Assembly (NCBI GenBank): GCA_951406725.2
Contig: OX597816.1
Coordinates: forward strand, 33,914,001 to 33,978,000
Direction of reading: 5' to 3'
DNA from: Octopus vulgaris
Taxonomy: Eukaryota
DNA length: 64,000 bases
Part shown: positions 854 to 63,903 of the stretch, in pieces
Position numbering within the stretch: position 1 is the stretch's first letter
Layout of the letters: the number at the start of each line of letters is the position of its first letter
Made by a program: the position numbers and the translations under genes
Notes under the pieces: model-generated
What the model was told of the DNA's origin: nothing
Seen by the model: the letters and a program-made list of their open reading frames with translations, nothing else
The model's database searches: none

Positions 854-918
<65 letters not shown>

Positions 919-942
919 GTGTGTGTGATTGTGTATAGAAGA

Positions 943-1278
943 ATATATTAATAAAAAGAATTCCAACCTTGTCTGATTTTCACGTTTTATTTACAATCTT
1001 ATAATGATATATTATAAGATAATATATTATAATTGAATAAAATAAAATGAAATAGTAGAATGTTAAATATTCATTCTGATTGAACTAGTACTTTCATGCA
1101 TTGAATTCTGCAATCTTCGGGTTCATGTAGTAGTGTTGACAGTCATGCTTCACAATTTTTGACTGTAGCAAGATGAGTGGTTCTGTGCTATAAATACAGC
1201 TGGGTAGGCTCCAGAGTGCTAGGTTTTGCAAACTGTATTCTGACCAATCAGTGTGTAGTATCACTCAATTACTTAAGC
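943..1278. repeat. Left arm of 336-bp inverted repeat (3' pseudo-LTR of the element)
   Basis: Reverse complement of 3696-4031 with about 3 mismatches by eye. Confidence 0.95.
1081..1125 (-). ncRNA. Minimal type-I hammerhead ribozyme motif (variant core), sense to the RT ORF
   Basis: UGAAC-CCGAAGA-UUGCA-gaauucaa-UGCAU-GAAA-GUAC-UA-GUUCA: 5-bp stem I, core CCGAAGA instead of CUGANGA, stem II, palindromic stem III. Confidence 0.75.
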
Positions 1279-1619
1279 TGATTGGTTGGTTGAGCTGATT
1301 GGTTTAGGCATCACGCTTTGTTGGACAGGTCAAGAGTCCTGTATCTTGACCCTGGCCGAAGCAGCAATTGTTGGGTTATTTTTAGAAATGTTGTAAATAT
1401 CCTTTGTCAGAGATTTTTATATTTTTATATTTCAATTGTCATCATCATCATTGTCAGCACCTTAATTATTGTTGCTAGTGGTGATGGTGGTGGCAATAGA
1501 ACTTTTAACCCTAAATAAGATAATTTTCCTGCTATCTTCGTCTTGATCACCTTTAGTATTGTTGTTGTTGTTAGTGGTCATGGTCGTAGCAGTGGAAGTA
1601 ATACCTCTAAGTATTATTA

Positions 1620-3797
1620 TTATTGCTTATTTAGCTTGGGTTCGAATTTATCAATAAAATTATTTTCTCTGATTTTCCTCTCGATTTCACTTGGGCTGTG
1701 TAATTTGTAGAATGGAAATATTATATATATTTTCCGACCACATGTTGCTAGGTGGTTACTCAAAGGTATCTGACGGACCTCTGGGTCTCTAATCTGTTGC
1801 CGGTGTACACGTGAGCGTTCTAATAGTGCGTTTCCCGTCTGACCTACATATATTTCTTCACAATTTGGGCATTTGATGCAGTAAATTAAATTTCTGCTTT
1901 TGCAGTTCATATTCGCGTTTGTGAATATTTTCCCGGTTTTTGTGTTTATATATTGACCGGTATGTATGAATTGGCATGTGCCACATCGGCTATCATTGCA
2001 TTTACATACCGTGAATGTTTGGTCTTTGTTGCTGAGGTCAAATTTTGCCTTTGTTAGTAATGTTTTCAAGTTTTTAGGCTGTCTTTTACTAAGCACCATA
2101 GCTCGATCCTTGATTATGTCTTTTAATTCATTACTTTGGGCAATGATTGGTAGGTTTGCTTTGGCAATGTTGAAGATATTCTGGTGACATGGGTTGTGTG
2201 TCACTATGAATGGTATGACTTGTTCTTGTTTTCCTCTTCCTTGGGTTGTCCTAAGTTGTTGTATAGGTATTTTTATAGCCCGCTGTATGCCATTTTCTAT
2301 AAGTAGAGATGGGTATTTTTGTTTGAGCAAAAATTCTCTTAGTTCTATTAGGCGTTTGTTCCTGATATTTGCATCTTCTACAATAGTACAAATTCTTCTG
2401 GCTAGGCAGTATGGGATGTTACGTTTTGTATGTGGTGGATGGCACGACTTAAAATTTAGGTATTGATGTGTGTCTGTGTGTTTATAGTATATATCTGTGG
2501 TGATGGTGGTGTCTTTTTTAATTACCATTATATCCAGGAATGGTAATTTGGTACTACTCATCTCCTTTGTAAATTTGAGAGATGGGTGTAGGTTGTTCAG
2601 GAGGATATTGAACTCTTCCAGAGTATTTAGAGATACTGTCCAGATTATGAAACAGTCGTCTAGGTATCTCTTCCATGCCTTTTCAATATACTTTCTAAAT
2701 CCAGTGCCATAGTTTACCTCCACCTCTTGGTAGAGTTGTTCTTCTAAGTATCCCATTACAGAGTTGGAGTAAACGGGAGCAAACCTCGTTCCCATCGCCG
2801 TGCCTCTAATTTGGATGTAATTCTTTCCATTGAAGAAGAATGTGTTATTTTCTAGAATAAGTTTGACTGTGTCTAATATAAATGGCACTGTGAATCTGCT
2901 GGGAATCACTTCTCTATGTTTTTCTAACCAGTATTTAATCGCCTTTATTCCTAAATCGTGTGGAATATTGGTGTAGAGGCTTACCACATCAAAACTTAGC
3001 AAAACTGAATTTGTTTCTGTTGTTTTGGGAAGATGGGACAGGAAGTCGATGTCATCCCTGATGAAACTTAGTATGTAAGTACATAGTGGTTTCAAAACAA
3101 TGTCAATAAAATTGCTTAGACGGTGTGTAGGGCATGCTGGACCAGCTATAATAGGTCTAAGTTTTAGGTCTTTTGGATGTAATAATTTTATGTACTCACT
3201 TTCTTGTTCTTTTACTGCCTGTTCAATGTTTTTTGATTTGTGTATTTTTGGTAAGCCGTAGAAGTTGCTGGGTTTTGGTTCAAAATTGGTGATGTAGTCT
3301 TTTTCATTAGCCGTAAGTGAGTTGTGGTGTGTTGAAATCAGGTTGTTGATCTTTTTCATGATGTGGTGGTCTATATTTGCGGGTATTTCACAATAGAAGG
3401 TTGTATCCTTCAGTTGGTCTTCAACCAAATCCTTATAGTATTCGGTATCCATAATAACAATTGCACCACCTTTATCTGCTTGTTTAATTATTATTGTTTG
3501 ATCGTTTTGTATACGTTTACATGCAGACATCTCTGATTTGCTAATGTTTGGCCTAACATTGGTATTGCGTCTAAGGGGAAATTTAGACAGGATATCAATG
3601 TATTGGTCAAGGTAGTTATTTCTTCCTTTTGGTGGGGTGAAATTTGATTTATTCCTTACTAGGGATTCATCAATCTCATTACTTTTGTAAGTAATGCTTA
3701 AGTAATTGAATGATACTACACACTGATTGGTCAGAATACAGTTTGCAAAACCTAGCACTCTGGAGCCTACCCAGCTGTATTTATAGCACAGAATCAC
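1620..3797 (-). CDS. Penelope-like reverse transcriptase + GIY-YIG endonuclease; N-terminus truncated, first ~34 codons come from the inverted repeat
   Basis: IIIKQADKGGAIV, FYGLPKIHK, LRPII, FDVVSLYTNIP, GTAMG, RYLDD, LPFLD, YYKHTDT; Cys linker CNDSRCGTC; LIYCIKCPNC..YVGQTG nuclease motif; no stops over 725 codons; GTG start. Confidence 0.95.
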   Translation of the reverse strand: MILCYKYSWVGSRVLGFANCILTNQCVVSFNYLSITYKSNEIDESLVRNKSNFTPPKGRNNYLDQYIDILSKFPLRRNTNVRPNISKSEMSACKRIQNDQTIIIKQADKGGAIVIMDTEYYKDLVEDQLKDTTFYCEIPANIDHHIMKKINNLISTHHNSLTANEKDYITNFEPKPSNFYGLPKIHKSKNIEQAVKEQESEYIKLLHPKDLKLRPIIAGPACPTHRLSNFIDIVLKPLCTYILSFIRDDIDFLSHLPKTTETNSVLLSFDVVSLYTNIPHDLGIKAIKYWLEKHREVIPSRFTVPFILDTVKLILENNTFFFNGKNYIQIRGTAMGTRFAPVYSNSVMGYLEEQLYQEVEVNYGTGFRKYIEKAWKRYLDDCFIIWTVSLNTLEEFNILLNNLHPSLKFTKEMSSTKLPFLDIMVIKKDTTITTDIYYKHTDTHQYLNFKSCHPPHTKRNIPYCLARRICTIVEDANIRNKRLIELREFLLKQKYPSLLIENGIQRAIKIPIQQLRTTQGRGKQEQVIPFIVTHNPCHQNIFNIAKANLPIIAQSNELKDIIKDRAMVLSKRQPKNLKTLLTKAKFDLSNKDQTFTVCKCNDSRCGTCQFIHTGQYINTKTGKIFTNANMNCKSRNLIYCIKCPNCEEIYVGQTGNALLERSRVHRQQIRDPEVRQIPLSNHLATCGRKIYIIFPFYKLHSPSEIERKIRENNFIDKFEPKLNKQ

Positions 3798-4031
3798 TCA
3801 TCTTGCTACAGTCAAAAATTGTGAAGCATGACTGTCAACACTACTACATGAACCCGAAGATTGCAGAATTCAATGCATGAAAGTACTAGTTCAATCAGAA
3901 TGAATATTTAACATTCTACTATTTCATTTTATTTTATTCAATTATAATATATTATCTTATAATATATCATTATAAGATTGTAAATAAAACGTGATAATCA
4001 GACAAGGTTGGAATTCTTTTTATTAATATAT
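3696..4031. repeat. Right arm of 336-bp inverted repeat
   Basis: Reverse complement of 943-1278. Confidence 0.95.
3849..3893 (+). ncRNA. Minimal type-I hammerhead ribozyme motif (inverted copy)
   Basis: tgaac ccgaaga ttgca gaattcaa tgcat gaaa gtac ta gttca read directly on + strand. Confidence 0.75.
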
Positions 4032-4070
4032 ATATATATATATATATACATACATATATGTACATATATG

Positions 4071-4128
<58 letters not shown>

Positions 4129-4185
4129 TATATATTTACAGATATATACATACATATATATATGTATATATAAACATACATATAA

Positions 4186-4253
<68 letters not shown>

Positions 4254-4589: not shown

Positions 4590-4790
4590 ATCTTTTATTC
4601 ATCTCGTCTGTTTCATGATGCACCCATTTGACTGGGACCATTCTGGAGCACTGTCTTGTAGTCGAAGATATGGACCCCTGGACTTATTCTTTATAAGGCT
4701 GGGACTTATTCCATCGGTCTTCTATCGAACCGCTAAGTTACGACGACTTAAATACACTACCATCGGTCGTCAAGCGATGTTTGGGTGCGT
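4590..4790 (-). mobile_element. SINE family A, partial and decayed
   Basis: Similar to the 3' half of 23521-23923 (catttgactg...ggacttattct...gaaccgctaagttacg). Confidence 0.7.
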
Positions 4791-23518: not shown

Positions 23519-23520
23519 TT

Positions 23521-24073
<553 letters not shown>

Positions 24074-24508
24074 GCACACGATCTCTCCCACACACACATA
24101 CGTGTGTATGTATGTATATAAAGACAGAGGTATAGAAATTGAAAATTGTTTATACCGAGAAAATAACAGATTGCTTTTTGAAGTTATATTCGCAAAACAA
24201 ATGTTTCTGGTGTCATAAATATACTTCGTTTGAGAGGAAAGTCACACGAACACGAAGAAGAAAAGGCAATTTCCAGTCTTCCTGGAGATTGGTAGCATAC
24301 TTGTATAGAACGTAATCAGAAACGATGTGGGCAACAAATTAAATAATTCCAGTTTAACTTTATTTTCTACACCTGTGACTGCGAAAAAGAAAGTCACGTG
24401 CCGTACGTAACATGTTTATTTCTTAAAAGACAGTTACGATCCCGTAAATTATATCCTTAGGTAAGAATTTTAATATGTAAGTGCATGTATCTATCTATCT
24501 ATCTATCT

Positions 24509-27500
24509 GAATGCTACCTTGGACACGCATGTAGACTACGTGGGTAGAGATAGGAATAGACGGGGATGCAAATGCCTCAGAGACCTGCTCAGACGCTTTC
24601 AACTGTCTGACAGGTTCCGACTAGACCACCCGAATGCGCCAACGTGGACATGGAGCAACCGCATCGGGTCATCGAGATCGTATCTAGATAGGATACTGTG
24701 TAGGACAGTAGATAGAGATAGCATAGGATGTCCACAATTCCACATAGTCAGCTACACGGATCACAAACTTGTGACATGTACGCTAGACTTAGGTAAGACA
24801 CTTAGGCAGGGTCCCGGATACTGGAAACTAAACGCGTCTTTCCCATCGAGACAAGTTTTCAGAGACCGGATTAGCACACTAGTAAAGAGGGCTTTGACGG
24901 GAGCCATCATCAACAACAAATGGTGGTTTGCCCTCAAGAGAGCAGTAAAAGCAGAAGCGATTAGGTACAGCAAAGCACTAGCCATAGATAGAAATAGAGT
25001 AGAGGGTGAGCTAGTTAAGAAGCTAGAAGAGGCAATTAGAAGCGGCATCGCATCCGACGTTTTGGCGGCGAGGTTGGCCCTCGACCAACACTTCAACGCC
25101 AAACACGAAGGATGTGCTGTCAGAGCTAGGATGCGTGCTCTAAGGAACGAAGGTGTTGGAGCCGCGAGAGAGGCCCGGGTGGCAGAGGCGCAACAGGGCA
25201 ACAAAGCCACCATTCGGTCACTGGTAGATGAATTGCTCGAGCCAAGTAAAATGTGTGAAGCCTTTCAGCAGCATTTTGTCCGACTGTTCGGAACGAGTGG
25301 AGGGCAAGAACGTAGGGTGGACTTCAGTGCCTACCTACATAGCCTACCACGACTCTCGACAAGAAAGGCAGGGTGCTGCGAAGGTGCCATCACGGCGGCG
25401 GAAGTGCGGGAAGCGATGGCAGAATGCTCGAGGGACAAATCACCGGGTTTGGATGGTCTACCCTACGAGCTTTACAATTGTATGCCAGACTTGTTTGGAG
25501 ATCTCTTGGCGGCGGTGTACTGCAACTGGCAGCAAAACGGGAGCATTCCTGGTTTTGTGAGCCGAGGAGCCGTAACACTGCTGAAGAAAGATCTAAACAA
25601 GGGAAATGTAATAGATAACTTTAGGCCCATCACTCTGCTTAATGCAGACTTGAACATTTTGGCCAAGGTGCTAGCCAAGAGGTTGGCGCTTGTCATCGAG
25701 AAACTTGTCGACAAGGCGCAAACATGCGCCGTGCCAGGCCGGACCATCCATGACAACCTCCATCTGATGCGCTACATCATAGACAGGGTAGTTAACGAAC
25801 CTGGCATGGGTGGGGCCCTGATCAACTTGGATCAATCGAAAGCCTTTGATAGGGTAGACCATCGATACTTGGGGGCAGTCCTGAGAGCGGCTGGTTTCGG
25901 TCCCGTTTTCCGCGGATGGATAGCTGCTTTGTACAGAGGCATCCGTTCGGTAATTCGCGTAAATGGACATCTATCGAGACCTTTCAACATTGCACGTTCG
26001 GTCCGTCAGGGATGCCCCCTCTCAGCGCTTCTATACGTATTGACTCTTGAGCCACTACTGCGGAAGCTGGCGACTCTAAGGGGCATCCCGCGAGAATTGG
26101 GATGCGGGACGAGCGTGTCTGCATACGCGGACGACGTCACCGTCATAGTGTCTAGCCACGAGCACATCGAGCTGGTCGGCGAGACACTGAAAAACTACGA
26201 AGCAGTGACAGGAGCGAAAATCAACCGGGAAAAGTCAGTGGGCTTGCGACTAGGCACCTGGAGAAGCAAGCCCATGCCGTCCGCCAGCGCCTCCGTCGTG
26301 GGACGCTGGACCGACGGCCCGGTTGAGTTGCTCGGGGTCTGGTTTGGTCCGGACCTCCAAGTGGAGAAGAACTGGAACGAGATAACGAGTAGGGTGGTCA
26401 CTCTCGCCCGGCAATGGGCCGAGAGGAAACTGTCCCTAAAAGGTCGAGCGGAGGTGGCGAACACGTACATCGCGTCCGTCATCTACTACCGCCTGACCGT
26501 CGTACCTTGTCCCGACCCTACCATCACCAAACTACAACGCATCCTCTTTCGCTTCTTGTGGAAAGGATGCGTCCCGATGGTCAGGCGATCCATTTGCTGT
26601 CAACACCCGTTAAAAGGAGGGCTGGGCATGCCGTGGTTGATGATGCGCAGACACGCGCTGAGACTGCGGCATCTCTGGCTCTATGTAGACGACGGTGAAC
26701 AGGTGAGGTCGCCGTTTGTGAGGCACGCTTTCCCGCAGCTCGTCTCCATGACCGAACTGCAGTCGTGGATCAAAAAGAGGCCGAGGAAGGGCGAATGGCA
26801 CCGCGAGTGTCGCGTTGCTCTCAAGCAACTCTGCCGTCCTGGGTCGACCTTAAGTGACTTCAACACAACCAAAGCATTCTATAGGGGTTTAGTGGAGGGG
26901 AGGTACGACGACGAGCTCGGGGCGAACCTGGACGTCGACGAGGAGTACCTGACCCGCCTGTTCAGGACGACTTTCGGGCCAGGGCCCATGGACAACTTCC
27001 AGAGATCCCTGGCCTGGCAGTGCTACCGAGAAGCGCTACCCGTTCGGGATAAGCTCTACAGACACGGCTCGAGAAACACGGGGCCGACCTGCCCGAGATG
27101 CGGTCAGAGCGACGAAACCGTTCTGAACGCACTCGTTCAGTGTCCAACAATTTCCGACCTGTGGGCTTATGTCGAACAACTGCTGTCACGTGTGGGACGA
27201 GTCGGTTTATCAGCTGAGTCTATCGTCAATATTGTCACGCCTCCTTCCTTCAAACGGGAAGGAAGAGCTATTTTCATCATCCTTGTGGCTATGGCGAAAG
27301 AATGTATCTGGTGGACGCGTCTGAAAGGATTGGAGACAAACACTTTCCTCTCTGGTCAATCTCTCATCAACTTCTTCAAGTACCACTTGAAAAGGAAAGT
27401 GAGAGTAGAGAGGCAAGTTTTGTCTAGCGAATGTTTTAAAAAAAGATGGGTGAATGTAGCAAGAATGGCACGTATGAATGACGAAGCCACCTTGAGCATA

Positions 27501-27884
27501 GTCCTATGAACCCAGAAATCGAAAACAGAGAGTTGCTTATTTGCAAAAAAAAAAAAAAGAAATATAAAATGTGACATCATTGACCGAGGTTACCGTGGTC
27601 TTTTCCGTAGGCTTTTCTTTGCACGGGTAAACCTCACCTGTCCTCCCCTTTACACTTCATATTGACATTTCTGTGATAACGATCCCTATTGATCAATTTT
27701 TTTCTCCCCCACTTTTTTTTAAACCCCCTTTTTGTGTCCTCTTTCTCTCCTTTTACGATCCCTTTTGATCGAAACTCCCCCTTCCTTTTTTTTTTTTTTT
27801 TTTTTTTCTTAAACCTTCAAAAGAAAAGCTCTACCTTGTAATTTGTTCTATCTGTGTGCAGCCCTGTGTGGCTAATAAAGAAAC
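24509..27884 (+). mobile_element. Tx1/L1-clade LINE, 5'-truncated, inserted in a (TATC)n microsatellite
   Basis: (TATC)n at 24488-24508 and from 27886; ORF2; 3' UTR ending in AATAAA at 27874. Confidence 0.93.
24519..27509 (+). CDS. LINE ORF2: C-terminal part of APE endonuclease, reverse transcriptase, zinc-knuckle region
   Basis: TWTW..SYLDRI, YTDHKLV, GPGYWKLN, KSPGLDGLPYE, NFRPITLLN, LDQSKAFDRVDH, SVRQGCPLS, AYADD, CPRC..ETVLNALVQC; 996 codons without a stop. Confidence 0.95.
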   Translation: MDTHVDYVGRDRNRRGCKCLRDLLRRFQLSDRFRLDHPNAPTWTWSNRIGSSRSYLDRILCRTVDRDSIGCPQFHIVSYTDHKLVTCTLDLGKTLRQGPGYWKLNASFPSRQVFRDRISTLVKRALTGAIINNKWWFALKRAVKAEAIRYSKALAIDRNRVEGELVKKLEEAIRSGIASDVLAARLALDQHFNAKHEGCAVRARMRALRNEGVGAAREARVAEAQQGNKATIRSLVDELLEPSKMCEAFQQHFVRLFGTSGGQERRVDFSAYLHSLPRLSTRKAGCCEGAITAAEVREAMAECSRDKSPGLDGLPYELYNCMPDLFGDLLAAVYCNWQQNGSIPGFVSRGAVTLLKKDLNKGNVIDNFRPITLLNADLNILAKVLAKRLALVIEKLVDKAQTCAVPGRTIHDNLHLMRYIIDRVVNEPGMGGALINLDQSKAFDRVDHRYLGAVLRAAGFGPVFRGWIAALYRGIRSVIRVNGHLSRPFNIARSVRQGCPLSALLYVLTLEPLLRKLATLRGIPRELGCGTSVSAYADDVTVIVSSHEHIELVGETLKNYEAVTGAKINREKSVGLRLGTWRSKPMPSASASVVGRWTDGPVELLGVWFGPDLQVEKNWNEITSRVVTLARQWAERKLSLKGRAEVANTYIASVIYYRLTVVPCPDPTITKLQRILFRFLWKGCVPMVRRSICCQHPLKGGLGMPWLMMRRHALRLRHLWLYVDDGEQVRSPFVRHAFPQLVSMTELQSWIKKRPRKGEWHRECRVALKQLCRPGSTLSDFNTTKAFYRGLVEGRYDDELGANLDVDEEYLTRLFRTTFGPGPMDNFQRSLAWQCYREALPVRDKLYRHGSRNTGPTCPRCGQSDETVLNALVQCPTISDLWAYVEQLLSRVGRVGLSAESIVNIVTPPSFKREGRAIFIILVAMAKECIWWTRLKGLETNTFLSGQSLINFFKYHLKRKVRVERQVLSSECFKKRWVNVARMARMNDEATLSIVL

Positions 27885-40689: not shown

Positions 40690-41435
40690 ACACATGGAAC
40701 AACTTAGACCAACACGAGAAAGACAAACTCATCAACAGAATAATATATTATTTCGAGTAATACACAATTCGCATCTCCAGAATATCTTTATATATAAAAG
40801 TAAGGTTTTGTGCTGTCTGTCTCCTACGATTTAGATTCCTAACTACTCCCACATTTTGCGGTGCAGTTTAACCAAAACCGAGTATCTTATAGTCGTAATT
40901 CATATCGAGCCCTTCTGGGTATTAGCGCTCGTCTACGGTGAGTCTACGATTTAAAAAAAAATTACCCTCAATTTTTCCCATTTTTAATGCATTTTTGGCA
41001 TATATAAGGGAAGTAACTCTCTAAAAAATTATTATTAAATCTCAGAACGTAAAAAGCTACAGTAACACCACCCCACTTTGTGGTTAGCCATATTGAGATG
41101 GCTATTATATTTTACATCTCTAAAAATGCTTATATAGTTATTTCCCTTATAAACCCGAGCAACGCCGGGCGATACTGCTAGTTTTTAATATCATCAAAAC
41201 AAATATACCAATCATTAAACAAAAAAAGAAAAAGCATAAATAATCAAACATCATAAGCAAAAGGCAACCACATGACCTAAAGAAACTATTAACAAAAGCA
41301 AAATTCAACATGAACAAACAGAATAAAACATTCTCAATAACCAAGTGCAATGATAACAGATGTGGAACGTGTCATACATGCATACTGGTAGATCCATTAG
41401 AATAAAAACAAAAGGACAGATATGAACTGCAAAAT
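40690..41435 (+). pseudogene. Decayed Penelope-like fragment (RT-EN linker) interrupted by a Helitron
   Basis: EQLR..IHNSHLQNI|FNIIKTNIPII, SKRQPHDLKKLLTKAKFN, KCNDNRCGTC, DMNCK align with the 1620-3797 protein. Confidence 0.85.
40785..41181 (+). mobile_element. Non-autonomous Helitron (397 bp)
   Basis: 5' TC, 3' CTAG, hairpin cccgagc-aac-gccggg ~12 nt before the end, inserted between A and T with no target duplication. Confidence 0.9.
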
Positions 41436-41933: not shown

Positions 41934-43829
41934 TCCATTTCAATATAACTCGATTTCTTTATTTATATATTCACGTATTTATTTTCTTTACTGATAACAG
42001 ATCTTAGGTGATTGTGTCCAAAATAAGACATCATTGTATATATATGTAAGAATTTGGATGTAAGTGATCGTGATAATTATGTTCATAATATTGCTGCTGC
42101 AGATGATGACCACACACACACACACAAACACAAACACACATACACACACACTCACAGAAATTCACACATACATGCGTTAAGCAAGTAACTAAAAATACAT
42201 GTAAATAGAAAGTTCTAAAGGAGGAAATGGGCTTTATGTTCAATATTTAGGTACTGATACTAAATTGTCTAAATATAAAATTAACGGTATTGTTGCAAAA
42301 ACAAAAGTGAGCAAATATTTCTTTTAATGAGCCGAGAAATATTAAAAATATCGAATAATCGTTTGAGAATTAAAATTCCCTGAAATATCAAGTCTAGATA
42401 GCCACTAAGAAATGTCGTAATCATTATCATATATATTTTTAATATATTATTCTTAATACGTAGTACATCTTAATATTGTTTAGAATAAATAACGTTTGTC
42501 AATGGATTATTAATTACTTAGCACCATTGGATTTAAGAGTTATGTTTCTGAAATTTTCTTGGAAGTTCTAATGCTTGGATTAAGAATTAGATTCAAGCCC
42601 AAAATACAAGAAGCAACAATGTAGGCTTGTTCAGAGAAAAATAATAGTTAACGTCGTTTATGTTCTGAGCAAGATCACTGAAATAAGCAGAGCGTTTACA
42701 TAAATGCAGAAGCCTTCTATGTGTGTTGCATAGATCACACAAAATCTCTTAGTTAATGAATAAATAGTTAACATATTAATCTACATTTAATTATCTTACG
42801 CGTAATCTGAAATGTGTAATGGAAACAAAGTGTAATGAATATTTGAAATGAAATATGGAGTGATGAGATGTAGTGAAGAGTAAGATAGAAGTATGTGTGA
42901 AAAACCAACATGTTTTTAAAATATGAAATAATTACGTGCTGTGTTTGAAATCACATAGTGTACGTATTGAGGTAAGAAGATCAACCATCAACAATATCCA
43001 TCATGAGGACAAAGGAAGCCTCTTAGCTGCAGCAAAGAAAGGTCAGCTAATATTTCTTATTATTATTAGTGAGATTGGAAGAGATGGATCTAGGTTTTCT
43101 CATAAAGACAGGCAGGTAGTTAGAATCTCAAGTACATTACCGACGACTTCCAATATAAGAATTATAATAATACTGAAACAACCACAGTCACCATTAAATA
43201 TTTGATGACCATCTTTACTTGAGATGAAAATATATACGAAAGAAATTAAATCCGATTTTGTGATATAATGCATTGACAAGTAAGTAACTATTAATGCAAG
43301 GAGATTGAAATATGCTTAGACTCTATCTTTACATATGTTTATTTTGCCTGAATGTCTATAAGCAAAAGGAAAGTCTCATCAAGGTTTTAACGAAGTTCGT
43401 GACTCCTGAAAAGAATTACGGAGAAAAATTTACTGGTCATTGTGTCAATGTGGAATTACAATGAGATAAGGAGAAACGAAAGGAAATTGATGTTTGTAAT
43501 AAAGCTCAATGGAAGAATTTTACTTGACATCTTATAAGAAGAAGAAAAATATGCCTAAAATACTTGGAGACAACTGAAAAAAATGTGTTATATATGTCAT
43601 CGGTGACACATCTAATCTGCACACATGGAAAGGCACCTTAAATTTTACAAGAGTCTCTCTATTTCAATCCACATTCCTTGGAACATGCGCTTGGCTTAGA
43701 TTTTCCTTTGGGGCTGACCAGGTAGGAGCAATCTCAAGATTAATCAACCTAAATTGCGAGGATGATCCGGTTATTGACTGAATATTGAAGGCTTCGAATG
43801 CCCCATCCGTGTATTTGGTATCGTCTTCT

Positions 43830-45100
43830 AAATGTTCTTGGTATCGTCTTCTAAAATTATTTTCCCAGACTTATCGCTCAATTTCCCATGAGTTGTGGAA
43901 TTTGTACAATGGTAATATTATAAATTGTTTCTCACCACTTGTTGGCAGGTTGTTGCTTAAAGGTATCTAACGGACATCAGGACCCTTATTTTATTGTCGG
44001 AGTACACGTGAATCTTCCGCTAAGGCATTCCCAGTCTGACCAACGTATATCTTTTCACAATTCGGACATTTCATGCACTATGTTAAATTTCTGTCTTTGC
44101 AGTTCAGATTTGTGTGTTCATATACCGACCGGTATGTATGAACTGATCTGTACCACATCGAATATCATCGATTTCGATACAAGGAATAATTCGTCGTTGT
44201 TGTTTCTGTCAAGCTTTGCATTTTCATCAATTGCATCAAGTCCTCTGATCCTTAGAACGATCCGTGATTATATAATTTAATTCATTACTTTGAGCAATGA
44301 TCGGCAACGTTGCTTTGGCAATGCTATAGATATTTTGGTGTCACATATTGTGTGACACTATAAATGGTATGACCTGTTCTTGTTTCCTCTTTTTCGGGGT
44401 TGCCCTAAGTAGTTGGATGGATATTTCTATATCAAACTCTATACCATTTACTCTAAGTAGAGACAGTTATTTTTGATTGAGTAGAAATTCTTTCAGCTCT
44501 GTTAGGCCTTTGTGGCTGGTGTTTTTGTGGCAAGGCAGTTTGGGATATTGCGTTTTGTACGCGTTGAATGGCACGACTGAAAGTTCAGGTACAGATGCAT
44601 GTCTGAGTGTTTATTGAATATATCAGTGGTGATGGTGGTGTCACTTCTAATTACCATTATATCTAGAAATGGTAATCTAGTACTAAGCATCTCTTTTGTA
44701 AATCGGATTGTTCGGAGCAGATTGGTCAGGAAGATATGAAATTCTTCGAGAGTATTTAAAATTTATGTCCATATAACAAAGTAATTGTCAACGTATCTCA
44801 TCTATGTATCTTCAATATACCTTCTAAATTCAGTGCCGTAGTTTTCCTCTTTGATGGAGTTGTTTTTCTAAGTATCTCATTTTGGGTTTCCATAGATATA
44901 CCTCTGACTTCAATGTAATTGAATGTGTTATGTTCAAGGATAAGTTTCTCTGAGTCTAATATAAATGATACGGTGCATCTATTGGGAAACAATTCATTAT
45001 GTTTTTCCACCCAGTATTTAATCGCCTTTATCCCTAAATCATGTGGATTATTGGTGTAAATGCTTGGTATATCGAAACAAAGTAAAAGTGAATTCAATAT
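43830..45100 (-). pseudogene. Decayed relative of the 1620-3797 Penelope-like RT/GIY-YIG
   Basis: FDIPSIYTNNPHDLGIKAIKYW, TRLPFLDIMVI..SCHSTRTKRNIP; nucleotide similarity to ~1630-3010; 5' end abuts (TCTA)n/(TA)n. Confidence 0.9.
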
Positions 45101-46369: not shown

Positions 46370-47896
46370 AAAGTAACATTTAGTAACATAAAGTTGAGGG
46401 GGTTTAAATGGAACTTTATGCAAATAAAATAAAATTAAAAAAATATAGGTATATTATATAGTAAGGAAAGATATAAGTTTAAAAAAGAGACATATTGAGA
46501 GAAAAGGAGATGTAGGGAGAGATACATAAATTGTTAACCCAATAAGTGGTGGGTCACACAATTGTAACAAGGGCATGTTAAATAAGAAATATCAAGATAG
46601 TGTAAGATATGGTGATGTAAGGTAGAAATATTTAACAAATGTTTCAAAAATAATCTTAGCAAGCGGGGAGTGAAGAATTACTTAAGATTCATAAATAGGA
46701 ATTTGGTCATGTGTTTACATGAGGAAACTATTTCATCCCTAGTATTAACTAAATTTCCAGTCATTCTCATTATGCTATAGCTTTCTTCCAGACACAACTT
46801 ACAAATTATATTATTATATCTGTAAGTGGTGGAGGGGATACGATTTTCTAAGAAACTGAGAAATCAGCGTTGTTTCTTTTGAGGTGCCAAACCTTTTTTA
46901 GATAGACCTCTGTTATTCTCTTTCCCAGAGTCCCTAAAAGAACATCTGTGATTATAAATTTGCGATTAAATTATTTAAGTGAATTGTGCAACCCACGTAT
47001 ATGTATTTAGAGTAGTCCTGAGTTATAATTGCTTGGTATACATCTTTTACTTTTGCATTTTATATCTACTTCACAGGCATTTGCGCGTCTACAATTATAA
47101 TTTAAATGATTGGGTGTTGCTATGGTGCTATGAATACATTTATTAGGGCTAATGGAATATTGGCTATCATGATTATAGTAGTTGATAATTATAGGGTTAT
47201 TGGACGTACTAGGTACATTTAACGTAGTGTTTGTCTTTATTGAATAAATCTAGTTTCTTATTGTTAAAGGAAGAGATTATCGTAAAGAGGTTTGTAGAGA
47301 CTGAAAATTAAAATCTAAGTTTTTTATTATTAAATATTTTAGCATAATTCGAGTTTTTGAATGTTCTATTAATTAGCATTGTAATGGTGCTAATAAAGTT
47401 GGATTTTAGATAATTGGCAGCAGGGATTATGATCCAAATAGTGTTATTGCTGTTTCCTTTATTGAAATGATATGATGTGTTGTTGTTGTTGGTTGGTGGT
47501 GGTGGTGGGGGGGGGGTCAGCTATTCTCACAATAGTTATTGGTTTCATATTTGCTATTCTATTCCCATCTGTATTAATTTGAATTGTATGGTTATGTGTA
47601 TTATTGAAAGAATTAGGTGAATTTAGATTATTTTCAATCTTTCTGTTTATTGCTTTAATATTCCTATTTATATATATTATTAAACAGTTTTGGTGTGTGT
47701 TGTCAGCATTCTTGGGTTTATTGATATTACTTTTTGTGTGGTTAATAAGGTGATAATTACTGAAATTCACATTATATTTTTCTTTTAGTAAACTTAAGGT
47801 TATAGTGCTCGCAATGATTAAGTTTATTAGTGTGCTTATTGTACTTGTGATTTTCATGTTTTTTCTAAAGTTGTGTTGGTGACTATTATTGAGAGG

Positions 47897-47897: not shown

Positions 47898-47954
<57 letters not shown>

Positions 47955-48530: not shown

Positions 48531-48777
48531 TACAGTCAAAAATTGTGAAGCATGACTGTCAACACTACTACATGAACCCGAATATTGCATTCAATGCATG
48601 AAAGTACTAGTTCAATCAGAATGAATATTTAACATTCTACTATTTCATTTTATTTTATTCAATTATAATATATTATCTTATAATATATCATTATAAGATT
48701 GTAAATAAAACGTGAAAATCAGACAAGGTTGGAATTCTTTTATTAATATATTCTTCTATACACAATCACACACACCC

Positions 48778-49236: not shown

Positions 49237-49316
<80 letters not shown>

Positions 49317-49488
49317 AATATTAGGGAATAAATCCAAATTTACTGGGAAAAAATCAGATTTAGGATTAAATCCAATTTTATAGTAAAATATTATAAAATA
49401 TTATTAGAGACAAAACCACTATTTTGCAAAACAAACAAGGAAAGACTTAATCAATACATAAAATTTTAATAAATAGTCAAAAAAACCG

Positions 49489-49531
49489 CCACTACAATTG
49501 TTTCTTGTCTTGATCGACAATCTTCAGGTGG
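49489..49531 (-). ncRNA. Minimal type-I hammerhead ribozyme, canonical core
   Basis: Exact reverse complement of 50084-50126. Confidence 0.9.
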
Positions 49532-50083
49532 ACTTCCAATCTAAAATATCAATATTTTAAAATATAAAAATAATAATTTTAAAATAATTAAAGTATGAAT
49601 GAAAAAATATAAATATATAATCCATATATAACCTATATATAATCCATATATAATCAATATATAAACAATATATAAACTAAAATAAACCTATCAACAATTA
49701 AATATAAAATATAAAATATAAAATATAAAAAATAAAAAATATAAAACAAAACAAAATAATAATAATAATATAATAATAAACCATATATACACCAATACAC
49801 ATATACCTAATTATATATAACCATATCTAACTACATACACTAAATCACACACCTATATATATATCGCTATACATACACATAAAAACGTCTAGGCAACTAT
49901 AAATAAATAAAATAGCTAAATACTACAACACAATACTTATTCATACTCACACACACACACACATACAACCCACATTCACGCTCTAGAAAACGGACATCAC
50001 TTAAAATTATGTTCATTCATACTTTAATTATTTTAAAATTATTATTTTTATATTTTAAAATATTGATATTTTAGATTGGAAGT

Positions 50084-50126
50084 CCACCTGAAGATTGTCG
50101 ATCAAGACAAGAAACAATTGTAGTGG
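50084..50126 (+). ncRNA. Minimal type-I hammerhead ribozyme, canonical core; predicted cut after GUA at 50122
   Basis: CCAC-CUGAAGA-UUGUC-gaucaa-GACAA-GAAA-CAAUUG-UA-GUGG: perfect stems I and II, palindromic stem III ACAAUUGU. Confidence 0.9.
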
Positions 50127-50213
50127 CGGTTTTTTTGACTATTTATTAAAATTTTATGTATTGATTAAGTCTTTCCTTGTTTGTTTTGCAAAATAGTGGT
50201 TTTGTCTCTAATA

Positions 50214-50310
<97 letters not shown>

Positions 50311-53017: not shown

Positions 53018-53180
53018 ATATAAATGACGGGCTGCTTTCAGTTTTCGTCTACCAAATCCACTCACAAGGATTTGGTTGGCCTGAGACTGTAGTAGAAGAA
53101 ACTTGCCCAAGATGTCACGCAGTTTGATTGAACCTGGAAATATGTGATTGGTAAGCAAAGTGCTTACTACACAGCCACAC
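52695..53180 (-). mobile_element. SINE family A with expanded internal (TA)n
   Basis: Reverse complement similar to 23521-23923. Confidence 0.85.
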
Positions 53181-53880
53181 CTTATTTTTTTCTGTCAGTA
53201 ATTAAAAATAGACCAAGATGAATTTGGTCTTGTCAAGGCCAACGTCAACGTTCTCATTGATCGCTAGTATTAGCAAACTCATTTGACCTCTGCTGAACTT
53301 AAGAGTGTGTGGGTTCTTTTGTCTCCTTATCGCACAGGAATGCTTGGCTATGGTTAATCTGGAAGCATGCCCCCCCCCCCCCCAGGAGAGAGCCAGCCTG
53401 CGGTCGAAAAGATATCCACTGGCACAAACTTTTCTCTGAATACGAACAAAAATTAGGTAAAATAAAAAGCGGGAAAATTATCCAGAATCCTTGTCCGGCA
53501 CCTGATCGACCCTGATGGTTATTGTGGAATATGAAGTAGGGTGTGCAGACCATGTTTGTAATGTGTGTGCATCGTCTGTAGTAGGAATATGGACAATTTT
53601 CTCTAAAACAATCTTTCATAGTCTATCCACTGATATTGTGTCTTTACGACTATTAAGGTCTACTGTGAAAAATGCATCTGTGCTTCAAAGAAAACGGAAA
53701 GCACCTGCGTACGATGCGCACAAAAAAACGTAAGTCCAAGAAATAAGGCTTCCTTCAAACCAGGGCTAGAAATGCAATCAAGTAGTCATCAAGTGTTAAC
53801 CAGGACCAATATAGTCAAAATTAGTACCACTAAAAATTGTCGAGGATAAATTAAGTCTATCATTGTTACAGTAACAATGA

Positions 53881-58781: not shown

Positions 58782-59190
58782 CACTCTTTTACTCTTTTCC
58801 TCTTTTACTTGTTTCAGTCATTTGACTGTGGCTATGCTGGAGCATCGCCTTTAGTCGAGTTAATCGACCCCAGGACTTATTCTTTGTAAGCGTCGTACTT
58901 ATTCTATCGGCCACTTTTGCCGAACCACTAAGTTACGGGGACGTAAACACAGCAGCCCCAGTTATCAAGCGATGTTGGGGACAAACACAGACGCAAAAAC
59001 GTATACACACACATACATATATATATACGACGGTCTTCTTTCAGTTTCCGTCTGCTAAATCCACTCAGAAGGCTTTTGTTGGCCCGAGGCTTTAGTAGAA
59101 AGCAGTTTCCTAAGATGCCACGCAGTGGGACTGCACCCGGAACCATGTGGTTGCTAAGCAAGCTACTTATCACACAGCCACTCCTACTCC
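58782..59190 (-). mobile_element. SINE family A, full length
   Basis: Reverse complement similar to 23521-23923. Confidence 0.9.
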
Positions 59191-59230
59191 ACTTCTTTAT
59201 ATATTTATATCTGTGTGAGTAGGGTCGGGT

Positions 59231-62050: not shown

Positions 62051-63104
62051 TTTATTCACTGAATATATGCTGTATCTGAAATGCAATTGCACTAAGATGC
62101 TCATCTACAGAATGTGTAAATAGTAATATTTGTTTTTAGAAAACTTTGTGTTAGGTGAGTATTGTTAAAAGTTCCACTATTGTGTAAAATGTGCATTGTG
62201 CTTCATAATGCTACCTTTTGAATTTTAGTTAATGTTTTATCTGCAGATATAATGGTAACTCTATTATAATACTCTGGCAATAATTATTCGCATTGATCCA
62301 ATTCTTATTCTATATATCTATGTTGAATATTTCAGATATGTTGTCTTTCTGCTTTTGTAATCATGCTAAAAATACAGCTGGTGCTATCGCCTTTTGAATG
62401 GGACAAAATTTCTAAAAGTGTGGACAGCTGTTCTATCGCGTTTTTAGTTCTTTAATCTCGGTGATAACTTTCTGTTAATTGTTACTATCATTAGGCGTGT
62501 TTTAGTTATAATTATGTCATATCTTTATTTATTGTATAATATTTTTTATGTTGTGTATGAATATCAGATACAGTCAAACACTAATTGTGTCAACTAATAT
62601 ACATAAATCTTTTCTGATAATTTTATGTCTACAATATACACATTTGTATATAAATATGTATGTACATACACATGCACACGCATTTTTGTGATGTTTATAA
62701 ATTCTTAGGTGCTTACAAATCTGTTACAATTTGCAGACAGCGATGATCTATGAGCATCTGCTTATTAAGATGCAACACTTATCAGAATAACAATTCCGAT
62801 TCCTTATGTAAATATGTATATATATATGATAAAATGTAACCACAAGTGGATCGTTGGAGCTTTTTACCTCCGTCATTCTTTTCCCTTGGACTTCCCTCCG
62901 TCTCCTGTTTCTGACGAAGAGCCTTGCTCGAAATAAAAATACCGTTTTTTCCTTCCCTGAGCGTCTGCTAATACTTTTCATGTGCCACGTCATCACGTTG
63001 TTGTTTTACTCTTGTGTTTGTTGTTCGTTTTCTTTTAATATTTACTATACATACATGCATGCATACACAGACAGACACACATACACATATATATATATAC
63101 ATAC

Positions 63105-63510
63105 TCATTTACTCTTTTACTTGCTTCAGTCATTTGACTGCGGCCATGCTGGAGCACCGCCTTTTTTATCGAGCAAATTGACCCTAGGACTTATACTTCG
63201 TAAGCCTAGTACTTATTATATCGGTCTCTTTTGCCGAACCGCTAGGTAACGGGGATGTAAACACACCAGCATCGGCTGTCAAGCGATGTTTGGGGTGGGG
63301 GGACAAACACAGATACACAAACACACACACATATATACATATATATACGACGGGCTTCTTTCAGTTTCCGTCTACAAAATCCACTCACAAGGCTTTGGTC
63401 GGCCCGAGGCTACAGTAGAAGACAATTGCCCAGGGTGCCACGCAGTGGGACTGAACCCGGAACCGTGTGGTTGGTAAGCAAGCTACTTACCACACAGCCA
63501 CTCCTGCGCC
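63105..63510 (-). mobile_element. SINE family A, full length
   Basis: Reverse complement similar to 23521-23923. Confidence 0.9.
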
Positions 63511-63903
63511 TATATATATATATATATATAATTGGAGTTAAACGCAGGTGTTATTCAAATCTTTTTAATTCCGACATATGTTTCGAAGAAAATAGTGGTA
63601 TTATTCCAGAAGGAATAAAATGGTATAAAACAATGAAATCTTCTCATGAGGAAAAGAAAAAAACCAAACTAATCAATAACACATCTTAACAGAATGTGAT
63701 GACTGCGTACATGATGAAGGAAACGCTAGCAACTTAAAAAAAAGAAACGTTAGCAGATATAATATCAAAGGTTGTTTATAGAAAGAGAAGGAGGAGAAAG
63801 AAGGAAATTAGCAGAAAACTAAACAGTGGAGATATATATCTCTGCAAATCTCTGCACTATTATTTTTCTGCTAATTCATATATATATATATATATATACA
63901 TAT

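What the first reader, a model, noticed from the sequence alone, without database searches (positions are those of the whole stretch)
917..4031. Coding Penelope-like element with the same inverted-arm + hammerhead + (TA)n architecture
Seen: an uninterrupted RT-GIY-YIG ORF bracketed by 336-bp inverted repeats (~99% identical). Each contains a hammerhead motif pointing outward, and TA microsatellite lies on both sides. The arm sequence is unrelated to 49313-50223, yet the layout is the same and the predicted cut lies ~170-180 nt from the longer terminus in both. Known: Penelope-like elements can have inverted pseudo-LTRs. Inference: one mechanism, reverse transcription of the RNA 3' end from both strands of a palindromic (TA)n target, builds these TIR-like retroelements. 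This would link an enzyme-encoding element to ribozyme-only passengers.
Basis: partly seen in the sequence, partly recalled or inferred. Interest (0 to 1): 0.8.

Follow-up and report, generated by a model that had tools for sequence, protein, structure and literature searches.

The report
Truncated Neptune-type Penelope retroelement, inverted cap
This is a real but ordinary, front-truncated copy of a Penelope-like jumping gene: its mirror-image end, small ribozyme motif and TA-repeat landing site are already described for this group, and the short ribozyme-only copies nearby are likely by-products of such elements rather than a separate kind of passenger.

Summary
All measured features hold: arms 943-1278/3696-4031 (336 bp, 3 mismatches), an outward-facing minimal hammerhead in each, (TA)n flanks, and cuts 169/180 nt from the long ends. 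The copy is not a complete coder. A public contig shows a ~4.27-kb unit of which this copy lacks ~1.5 kb at the 5' end, and the frame runs on only by chance into the antisense arm. The protein is Neptune-type. Inverted 5' cap, ~30-nt tail, minimal hammerhead and (TA)n bias are published features of Penelope-like elements, and two-strand cleavage with two internal RT start sites has been shown in vitro for a relative. Useful additions: two copies start exactly at a predicted transcription start, so the coding element likely makes ribozyme-only copies itself, and all four termini fall on TA micro-runs of the template. New member of a known kind; interest 0.3.

The parts
859..916 (.). (TA)29 microsatellite, left flank; at least 8 nt of it may be element-derived
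   Evidence: contig X6-23 carries 909-916 without a difference inside the full unit
917..942 (-). 26-nt tail; 917 is the long 3' terminus (inferred RT start site 1)
   Evidence: absent from the right arm, present in solo copy 48531-48777 at 98%
943..1278 (-). Left arm, the element's own 3' pseudo-LTR region; 943 is the short terminus (inferred RT start site 2)
   Evidence: other copies also end at 943 (X19-11, X2-18)
1081..1125 (-). Minimal type I hammerhead motif, U4C core variant, palindromic loop III, predicted cut after 1086
   Evidence: activity untested
1166..1302 (-). Predicted promoter: CCAAT boxes (1302, 1285, reverse 1248), TATA-like box 1196-1189, pyrimidine-purine start at 1167/1166, 30 nt downstream of the box's first base
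   Evidence: two independent copies have 5' ends at 1166/1167
1279..1619 (-). 3' untranslated region outside the arm
   Evidence: between the stop codon and the arm
1620..3688 (-). 5'-truncated RT plus C-terminal GIY-YIG reading frame (DKG motif, RT core, CX4CxxC linker, CCHH), no internal stop
   Evidence: family sequence diverges behind 3688
3689..3695 (.). 7-nt junction filler identical to arm 3700-3706 (templated insertion)
3696..4031 (+). Inverted 5' cap: second copy of the 3' region without the tail, hammerhead core at 3854, predicted cut after 3888
4026..4251 (.). TA-rich microsatellite, right flank; no target-site duplication can be read
48531..48777 (+). Solo 247-nt copy of the same family, from the predicted start site to the long terminus, ending in (TA)n, no inverted cap, hammerhead damaged (G8 changed, 3 nt lost from loop II)
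49313..50223 (-). Element B: another family, 212-bp arms (49392-49603, 50012-50223; 100%), 79-nt tail, canonical-core hammerheads, (TA)n flanks, no ORF
43829..45097 (-). Older, broken copy of a related PLE reading frame (71% DNA identity), no arms or hammerhead found

Best explanation
The element is a 5'-truncated copy of a Neptune-type Penelope-like retrotransposon with the group's known inverted cap, tail and minimal hammerhead, likely built when its enzyme nicked both strands of a (TA)n tract and primed two cDNAs at two internal start sites 26 nt apart. Shown: the anatomy, the truncation at 3688, a ~4.27-kb head-to-tail unit, recurrent ends at 917 and 943, and junction filler. Inferred steps: (1) a tandem copy gives a read-through RNA not cut by the weak hammerhead, since both cDNAs cross the cut site; (2) GIY-YIG nicks both strands of (TA)n; (3) one cDNA starts at 917 and stops after 2772 nt, the other starts at 943 and stops after 336 nt; (4) the two ends are joined head to head with a 7-nt templated filler. 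Initiation at the same sites near the 5' end of a transcript would give ~224-250-nt cDNAs that end at the transcription start, which are the hammerhead-only copies such as 48531-48777. Element B is likely the same kind of product from another family.
For: Protein: 637 homologues at E<=0.001 among 7999 scored, best 65% identity, named hits from bivalves. In the alignment of 19 homologues, the longer ones carry N-terminal motifs that this copy lacks. C-terminal EN with a CX4CxxC linker and 23 residues to the next Cys matches Neptune (25-27) and not Nematis (7) in Craig Fig. S2, compared by eye. Truncation: the same loose end behind 3688 in 3 of 4 runs; in the 4th, contig X6-23 (4301 nt) covers 1150-3688, 1491 other letters, then 909-1179. 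A second, independent head-to-head joint (988 with 1166) appears in 2 of 4 runs. The solo copy and that joint both start at 1166/1167, 30 nt below the TATA-like box. TA: 5 of 5 3' termini in the window lie within 1 nt of a TA run of 10 nt or more, against 5.3% of positions inside or within 6 nt of such a run. In relatives with a hammerhead, 6 of 17 close ones have such a run within 200 nt after the cut, against 0 of 17 upstream and 0 of 15 distant ones (p 0.018, 0.019). Literature: inverted 5'-truncated copy, 30-40-bp tail and (TA)n bias (PMC8557442); inverted pLTR with 31-bp tail as the typical structure (PMC3846280); both strands cut, two internal RT starts defining the tail, hammerhead cleavage dispensable (PMC11167929).
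Against: No genome is held, so the family sample is 2 window loci plus a few contigs; 24 contig pieces were not shown. The geometry does not exclude a single cDNA switching onto itself. In vitro support comes from a Poseidon element, not a Neptune. In this TA-rich window, 4 of 10 ends of an unrelated repeat family also lie within 6 nt of a TA run. One 3'-side loose end in the arm (X13, 965) is not TA. None of the 119 related loci showed arms bracketing the ORF, though most are short contigs that would break at such repeats. The clade call rests on motifs read by eye, not a tree with named references. The transcription start is predicted from motifs and two copy ends only.
Confidence: 0.75

Rival explanations
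1. One cDNA only: after reaching 3688 the growing strand switches from the RNA onto its own earlier part at 1278, copies it back to 943 and is joined to the target (self-templating, akin to the published self-priming idea).
For: It gives the same final sequence. The 7-nt filler copies arm sequence 4 nt into the cap, as slippage would. Self-priming was proposed for PLE inverted repeats (PMC3846280 Discussion).
Against: A simple fold-back would invert the ORF next to the junction, not the distant arm. The second joint (988 with 1166) has a cap that starts at the predicted transcription start and covers sequence absent from its 72-nt partner arm, so it cannot have been copied from it. PAc extends both target strands in vitro.
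Confidence: 0.12
2. One reading: a palindromic (TA)n target is what makes the enzyme copy the RNA 3' end from both strands, and this coding element mobilises ribozyme-only passengers such as 49313-50223.
For: Both elements have the same layout and sit in (TA)n. TA association recurs in close relatives. Non-autonomous PLE derivatives are published.
Against: The termini are internal to the unit. Inverted caps with 8-10-bp target duplications are published without microsatellites being mentioned. A family copy in (TA)n has no cap. This copy is truncated. The arms are unrelated, and cis ends were reported as family-specific in rotifers. B spans 699 nt from junction to long end, close to the 703 nt from stop codon to long end in this element, so truncation explains it. 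In six close relatives the cut-to-TA distance is 52-111 nt, not 170-180.
Confidence: 0.08
3. The arms arose after insertion or by a DNA route: two separate insertions head to head in one TA tract, gene conversion, or movement as a TIR (MITE-like) DNA element.
For: TA tracts attract repeated insertions: two related contigs show hammerhead ends tail to tail around a TA run (L052, L054).
Against: No TA remnant lies at the inner junction, only a templated filler. The arms differ by 0.9%, in line with the 8 fixed differences of this copy from the family over about 2550 nt, so both parts are of one age. The two caps seen in this family differ in length and joint, unlike copies of a fixed TIR element. 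No transposase ORF lies inside.
Confidence: 0.05

Closest known systems
Neptune clade of C-terminal EN+ Penelope-like elements (Craig et al. 2021, PMC8557442; abstract, passages, sections 3, 11, 12, 15, supplement search and part 54 read; Arkhipova 2006 known only through it)
   Same: RT then GIY-YIG with CCHH, CX2-5CxxC linker, hammerhead near the 3' end, microsatellite bias, partial tandem with inverted 5'-truncated copy and tail.
   Different: A new family with a 26-nt tail (published 30-40) and a U4C hammerhead core. This copy lacks the direct upstream pLTR because it is truncated inside the ORF.
Adineta vaga Penelope elements with inverted pLTRs (Arkhipova et al. 2013, PMC3846280; passages and Discussion read)
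   Same: 5'-truncated copies flanked by inverted ~200-bp pLTRs, optional 31-bp tail on one side, TATA and initiator in the pLTR, non-coding sequence captured between pLTRs.
   Different: Those have 8-10-bp target duplications; here (TA)n hides any duplication. The authors favoured self-priming.
PAc, Poseidon element of Anolis (Frangieh et al. 2024, PMC11167929; parts 1-2 of 4 read)
   Same: Two internal RT start sites bound the tail, both target strands are cut and extended, hammerhead cleavage is not needed.
   Different: PAc starts inside its ORF at a site reported as not homologous to the target. Here the starts lie upstream of the inferred ORF1 and coincide with TA micro-runs, so pairing with the target is possible.
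Minimal hammerheads of metazoan PLEs and non-LTR retrozymes (Cervera and de la Pena 2014, PMC4209133, parts 1-2 of 4; bioRxiv 10.64898/2026.07.22.740005, part 1 of 5)
   Same: Short helix I, extra base before helix II, palindromic loop III; mostly solo motifs ascribed to truncated PLEs; pairs 100-700 bp apart on opposite strands, which is the layout of element B.
   Different: Retrozymes are tandem arrays; neither element here is. No cleavage was tested here.

Membership tests
EN+ Penelope-like element | PLE-type RT with DKG motif followed by GIY-YIG endonuclease in one frame | tested here: met
   Pfam hits; DKGG at residue 108, YLDD core at 378-381; alignment
EN+ Penelope-like element | CCHH motif with two Cys between GIY and YIG | tested here: met
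   C606, C609, H628, H645 invariant in alignment A1
EN+ Penelope-like element | Pseudo-LTRs from tandem or partial tandem units, direct or inverted, with optional tail | tested here: met
   inverted arm and 26-nt tail; circularly permuted 4.27-kb unit
EN+ Penelope-like element | Type I hammerhead motif in the pLTR | tested here: met
   motif only, U4C core
EN+ Penelope-like element | Target-site duplication | tested here: inconclusive
   both flanks are (TA)n
Neptune clade | CX2-5CxxC linker before a C-terminal EN, long spacer to the next Cys | tested here: met
   CX4CxxC plus 23 residues, versus 25-27 in three Neptune and 7 in Nematis rows of Craig Fig. S2, by eye
Neptune clade | Microsatellite insertion bias | tested here: met
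   5 of 5 termini in the window; 6 of 17 close relatives versus 0 of 15 distant; small samples
Neptune clade | RT phylogeny with named Neptune references | not tested
   no named reference sequences were held as tool sequences
Nematis clade | Short spacer after the linker CxxC | tested here: not met
   23 residues versus 7
Penelope/Poseidon, Hydra, Naiad/Chlamys | No linker finger; or no CCHH and DKT; or N-terminal EN | tested here: not met
   linker, CCHH, DKG and C-terminal EN are all present
Autonomous (full-length) copy | Promoter in sense, start codon and complete N-terminus | tested here: not met
   1491 nt of the unit missing; N-terminal motifs of homologues absent
Non-LTR retrozyme (for element B) | Head-to-tail tandem units each with a hammerhead | tested here: not met
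   single insert with inverted arms
Non-autonomous passenger of this family (for element B) | Shared cis-acting 3' end, or absence of its own coding parent | tested here: inconclusive
   no arm similarity; parent not searchable
Active hammerhead ribozyme | Self-cleavage | not testable with these tools
   U4C lowers activity in vitro (PMC3088659 passage); minimal motifs cleave poorly and as dimers

The most novel reading that the evidence does not exclude
Neptune elements find (TA)n partly with their RNA, in a telomerase-like way: the nicked TA ends of both target strands pair with short UA runs in the transcript, and these runs fix the two RT start sites and so the tail length. Initiation at the 5'-proximal copy of those sites gives short cDNAs ending at the transcription start, which would explain the mass of solo and inverted-pair minimal hammerheads in animal genomes as by-products of coding elements. 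Basis: all four termini of the two elements fall on TA micro-runs of the template, the full unit carries at least 8 nt of (AT)n after the long terminus, whole units of relatives have 5-10-nt TA runs between hammerhead and ORF1 (not individually significant, p 0.08-0.47), and two copies start at the predicted start site. Searches listed no paper proposing this for Neptune; the library lacks most subscription papers.
Probability: 0.3. Interest if true: 0.6.

Novelty: new member of a known kind. Interest (0 to 1): 0.3.

Why it matters
The architecture is known, so the locus itself is ordinary. Its value is as a tidy test case. Craig et al. name the origin of tandem/inverted structures and microsatellite bias as open questions for PLEs. 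This young family has two sharp termini, locus-specific inversion joints, a predicted start site and a full-length unit in public contigs. If template pairing sets the start sites, Neptune targeting would be partly RNA-guided, unlike what was reported for Poseidon, and most stray minimal hammerheads would need no separate passenger class.

Tried and rejected
Own-genome search: no genome held, so no genome-wide table of copies and no empty orthologous sites. Rfam at gathering threshold: 0 matches. Monomer folding of the hammerheads: no better than shuffles. Expression: no RNA holder listed; the runs are only guessed to be RNA, so nothing is claimed on transcription or copy number. Inverted caps in relatives: none bracketing the ORF among 119 loci, judged uninformative because most are short contigs and many of the long ones are repeated distant hits. 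The TA test used only the 32 distinct hammerheads found by the descriptor among those 119 loci (17 close, 15 distant); loci without a hit were not counted. A constant 170-180-nt ruler from the ribozyme cut: rejected. Parent of element B: 0 exact matches of its hammerhead in genome contigs, no hit in the 119 loci and no PLE-like C-terminus seen in its three sense frames. Target-site duplication: unreadable. Earlier scan notes: none for this genome, for either sequence or for the longer word list. PMC12602865 and PMC3649969 passages had nothing on PLE caps. No fold or complex was predicted, since neither would change the verdict. Supplements of the bioRxiv preprint were not seen, and only one part and one search of the Craig supplement; hammerhead lists there may already include this family or the U4C core.
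Full report
Observation. Positions 943-1278 and 3696-4031 are 336-bp inverted repeats with 3 mismatches. A minimal type I hammerhead descriptor hits four places in the window, one in each arm of this element and of the element at 49313-50223 (element B), all pointing outward. A similar descriptor gave 0.02 hits per 64 kb in 100 local shuffles. Rfam found nothing, and the motifs fold no better than shuffles as monomers. Both flanks are TA microsatellite. A stop-free frame of 725 codons lies on the minus strand at 1620-3797, with RT and GIY-YIG matches. The arms of the two elements are unrelated apart from short AT-rich matches, and the predicted cuts lie 169 and 180 nt from the long ends.

Which end is which. 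A self-search found a second copy of the arm at 48531-48777, 98% identical. It includes 917-942, ends in (TA)n and has no inverted cap. So 917 is the element's long 3' end, 917-942 is a 26-nt tail, and 3696-4031 is an inverted second copy of the 3' region at the 5' end. Element B has the same plan, with 212-bp arms and a 79-nt tail.

The copy is truncated. I laid 909-3712 on four public runs kept as contigs. Three show the same foreign continuation behind 3688. In the fourth, one 4301-nt contig covers 1150-3688, then 1491 other letters, then 909-1179. The family unit is therefore about 4.27 kb and head-to-tail, and the window copy lacks about 1.5 kb. The longer of 19 aligned homologues have N-terminal motifs missing here, and my hand translation of the 30-letter loose end gives one of them in frame. 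The first 35 or so codons of the window frame are antisense arm and filler; the first Met is codon 90. In 7 of 8 relatives where both frames could be read, an upstream ORF1 overlaps the RT frame in the -1 phase, with a TTTTTTA heptamer in 5 of 8. The missing 1.5 kb likely holds such an ORF1; I did not see its sequence. This copy most likely cannot supply the enzyme.

Clade. The search returned 637 homologues among 7999 scored, the best at 65%, with named hits from bivalves and from symbiont bins of bivalves. The protein has DKG, a C-terminal EN, CCHH and a CX4CxxC linker, which the literature assigns to Neptune and Nematis. The spacer after the linker is 23 residues, against 25-27 in Neptune and 7 in Nematis rows of Craig Fig. 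S2 (by eye). I file it as Neptune-type without a tree. The host is an animal with a TA-rich genome, possibly a mollusc; that is inference.

Junctions. Between ORF and cap lie 7 nt identical to arm 3700-3706. Short duplications of neighbouring sequence also occur at the 5' joints of the solo copy and of B. A second head-to-head joint, 988 with 1166, appears in two runs, so caps recur in the family with different joints. Other copies end at 943, one with a visible TA flank. Both that joint and the solo copy begin at 1166/1167, 30 nt below a TATA-like box with CCAAT boxes further up. I read this as the transcription start; no RNA end was mapped.

TA association. All 5 3' termini in the window, from 3 loci, lie within 1 nt of a TA run of at least 10 nt, against 5.3% of positions inside or within 6 nt of one. 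The control is sobering: 4 of 10 ends of an unrelated repeat family do so too, and one 3'-side loose end is not TA. Among 119 related loci, 32 distinct hammerheads were found. Six of 17 close relatives have such a run within 200 nt after the cut, against 0 of 17 upstream and 0 of 15 distant ones (p about 0.02). Distances are 52-111 nt, so 170-180 nt is no rule. No relative showed a cap around its ORF, but most contigs are too short to tell.

Mechanism. Most likely the enzyme nicks both strands of a TA tract and primes two cDNAs on uncut RNA at two internal sites. One runs 2772 nt, the other 336 nt, and they are joined head to head. The steps are inferred. They match PAc in vitro, which cuts and extends both strands, starts at two internal sites that bound the tail, and does not need hammerhead cleavage. 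Self-templating would give the same sequence at this locus, but cannot explain the second joint, whose cap covers sequence absent from its 72-nt partner. Initiation near the 5' end of a transcript would yield 224-250-nt cDNAs ending at the start site, as the solo copy does.

What is known. An inverted 5'-truncated copy, a 30-40-bp tail and (TA)n bias are described as standard features. Rotifer elements show inverted pLTRs with 8-10-bp target duplications, so a palindromic TA target seems not to be needed. Minimal hammerheads in pLTRs, as solos and as opposite-strand pairs 100-700 bp apart, were reported in 2014. Non-autonomous derivatives are reported as well. The U4C core is a known weak natural variant. 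Here it is carried by the main contigs in three runs of organism A, while the run of organism B shows the canonical base. Two earlier scan notes on other genomes reach a similar reading; I did not test them and do not count them as support.

Element B. It has no ORF and no traceable parent. Its 699 nt from joint to long end equal the 703 nt from stop codon to long end in the coding element, so truncation of a different family explains it. A passenger status is open, not shown.

What could be new. All four termini of the two elements fall on TA micro-runs of the template, and the full unit carries at least 8 nt of (AT)n after the long end. Whole units of relatives carry 5-10-nt runs between hammerhead and ORF1, though those tested singly were not significant. 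Pairing of the nicked target with these runs may set the start sites. I put this at 0.3.

Verdict. Observation confirmed, with the correction that the copy is truncated. Interpretation partly supported. New member of a known kind, interest 0.3.

Noticed in passing
L045, L049, L059, L061, L062, L002, L068, L055: Whole-looking units of relatives have an upstream ORF1 overlapping the RT frame in the -1 phase (7 of 8), with a TTTTTTA heptamer in 5 of 8, suggesting ribosomal frameshifting.
   Followed up: partly
window 965-968 (run X13): A contig leaves the arm at 965 into non-TA sequence, 3 nt past an AG/GT donor-like site on the sense strand; it may be a spliced transcript of the element or a chimera with a host exon.
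   Followed up: no
window 1119: The hammerhead core is U4C in the window and in the main contigs of organism A, but canonical in the run of organism B and in a minor contig of one organism A run.
   Followed up: partly
window 24474-27509: A 1011-codon stop-free frame on the plus strand that looks like a LINE (L1/Tx1-type) RT; the label is recalled, not tested.
   Followed up: no
window 43829-45097 and 41256-41402: Older broken pieces of related PLE reading frames, without arms or hammerhead.
   Followed up: partly
window 47459-47896: A 145-codon Asn/Ile-rich frame on the minus strand that begins right at the TA run 47898-47953; no match to the PLE proteins tried.
   Followed up: no
window 4592-4785, 23520-23922, 53026-53182, 58786-59210, 63102-63527: A dispersed SINE-like family at 74-85% identity; 4 of its 10 ends lie within 6 nt of a TA run.
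   Followed up: partly
L001-L040; P0007, P0008, P0055, P0078: Animal-type PLEs sit in assemblies labelled as bacteria or symbionts, most likely host DNA contamination.
   Followed up: no
L052:2300-2600, L054:1790-2018: Two hammerhead-bearing ends lie tail to tail around a short TA run, as if one copy inserted into the TA flank of another.
   Followed up: no
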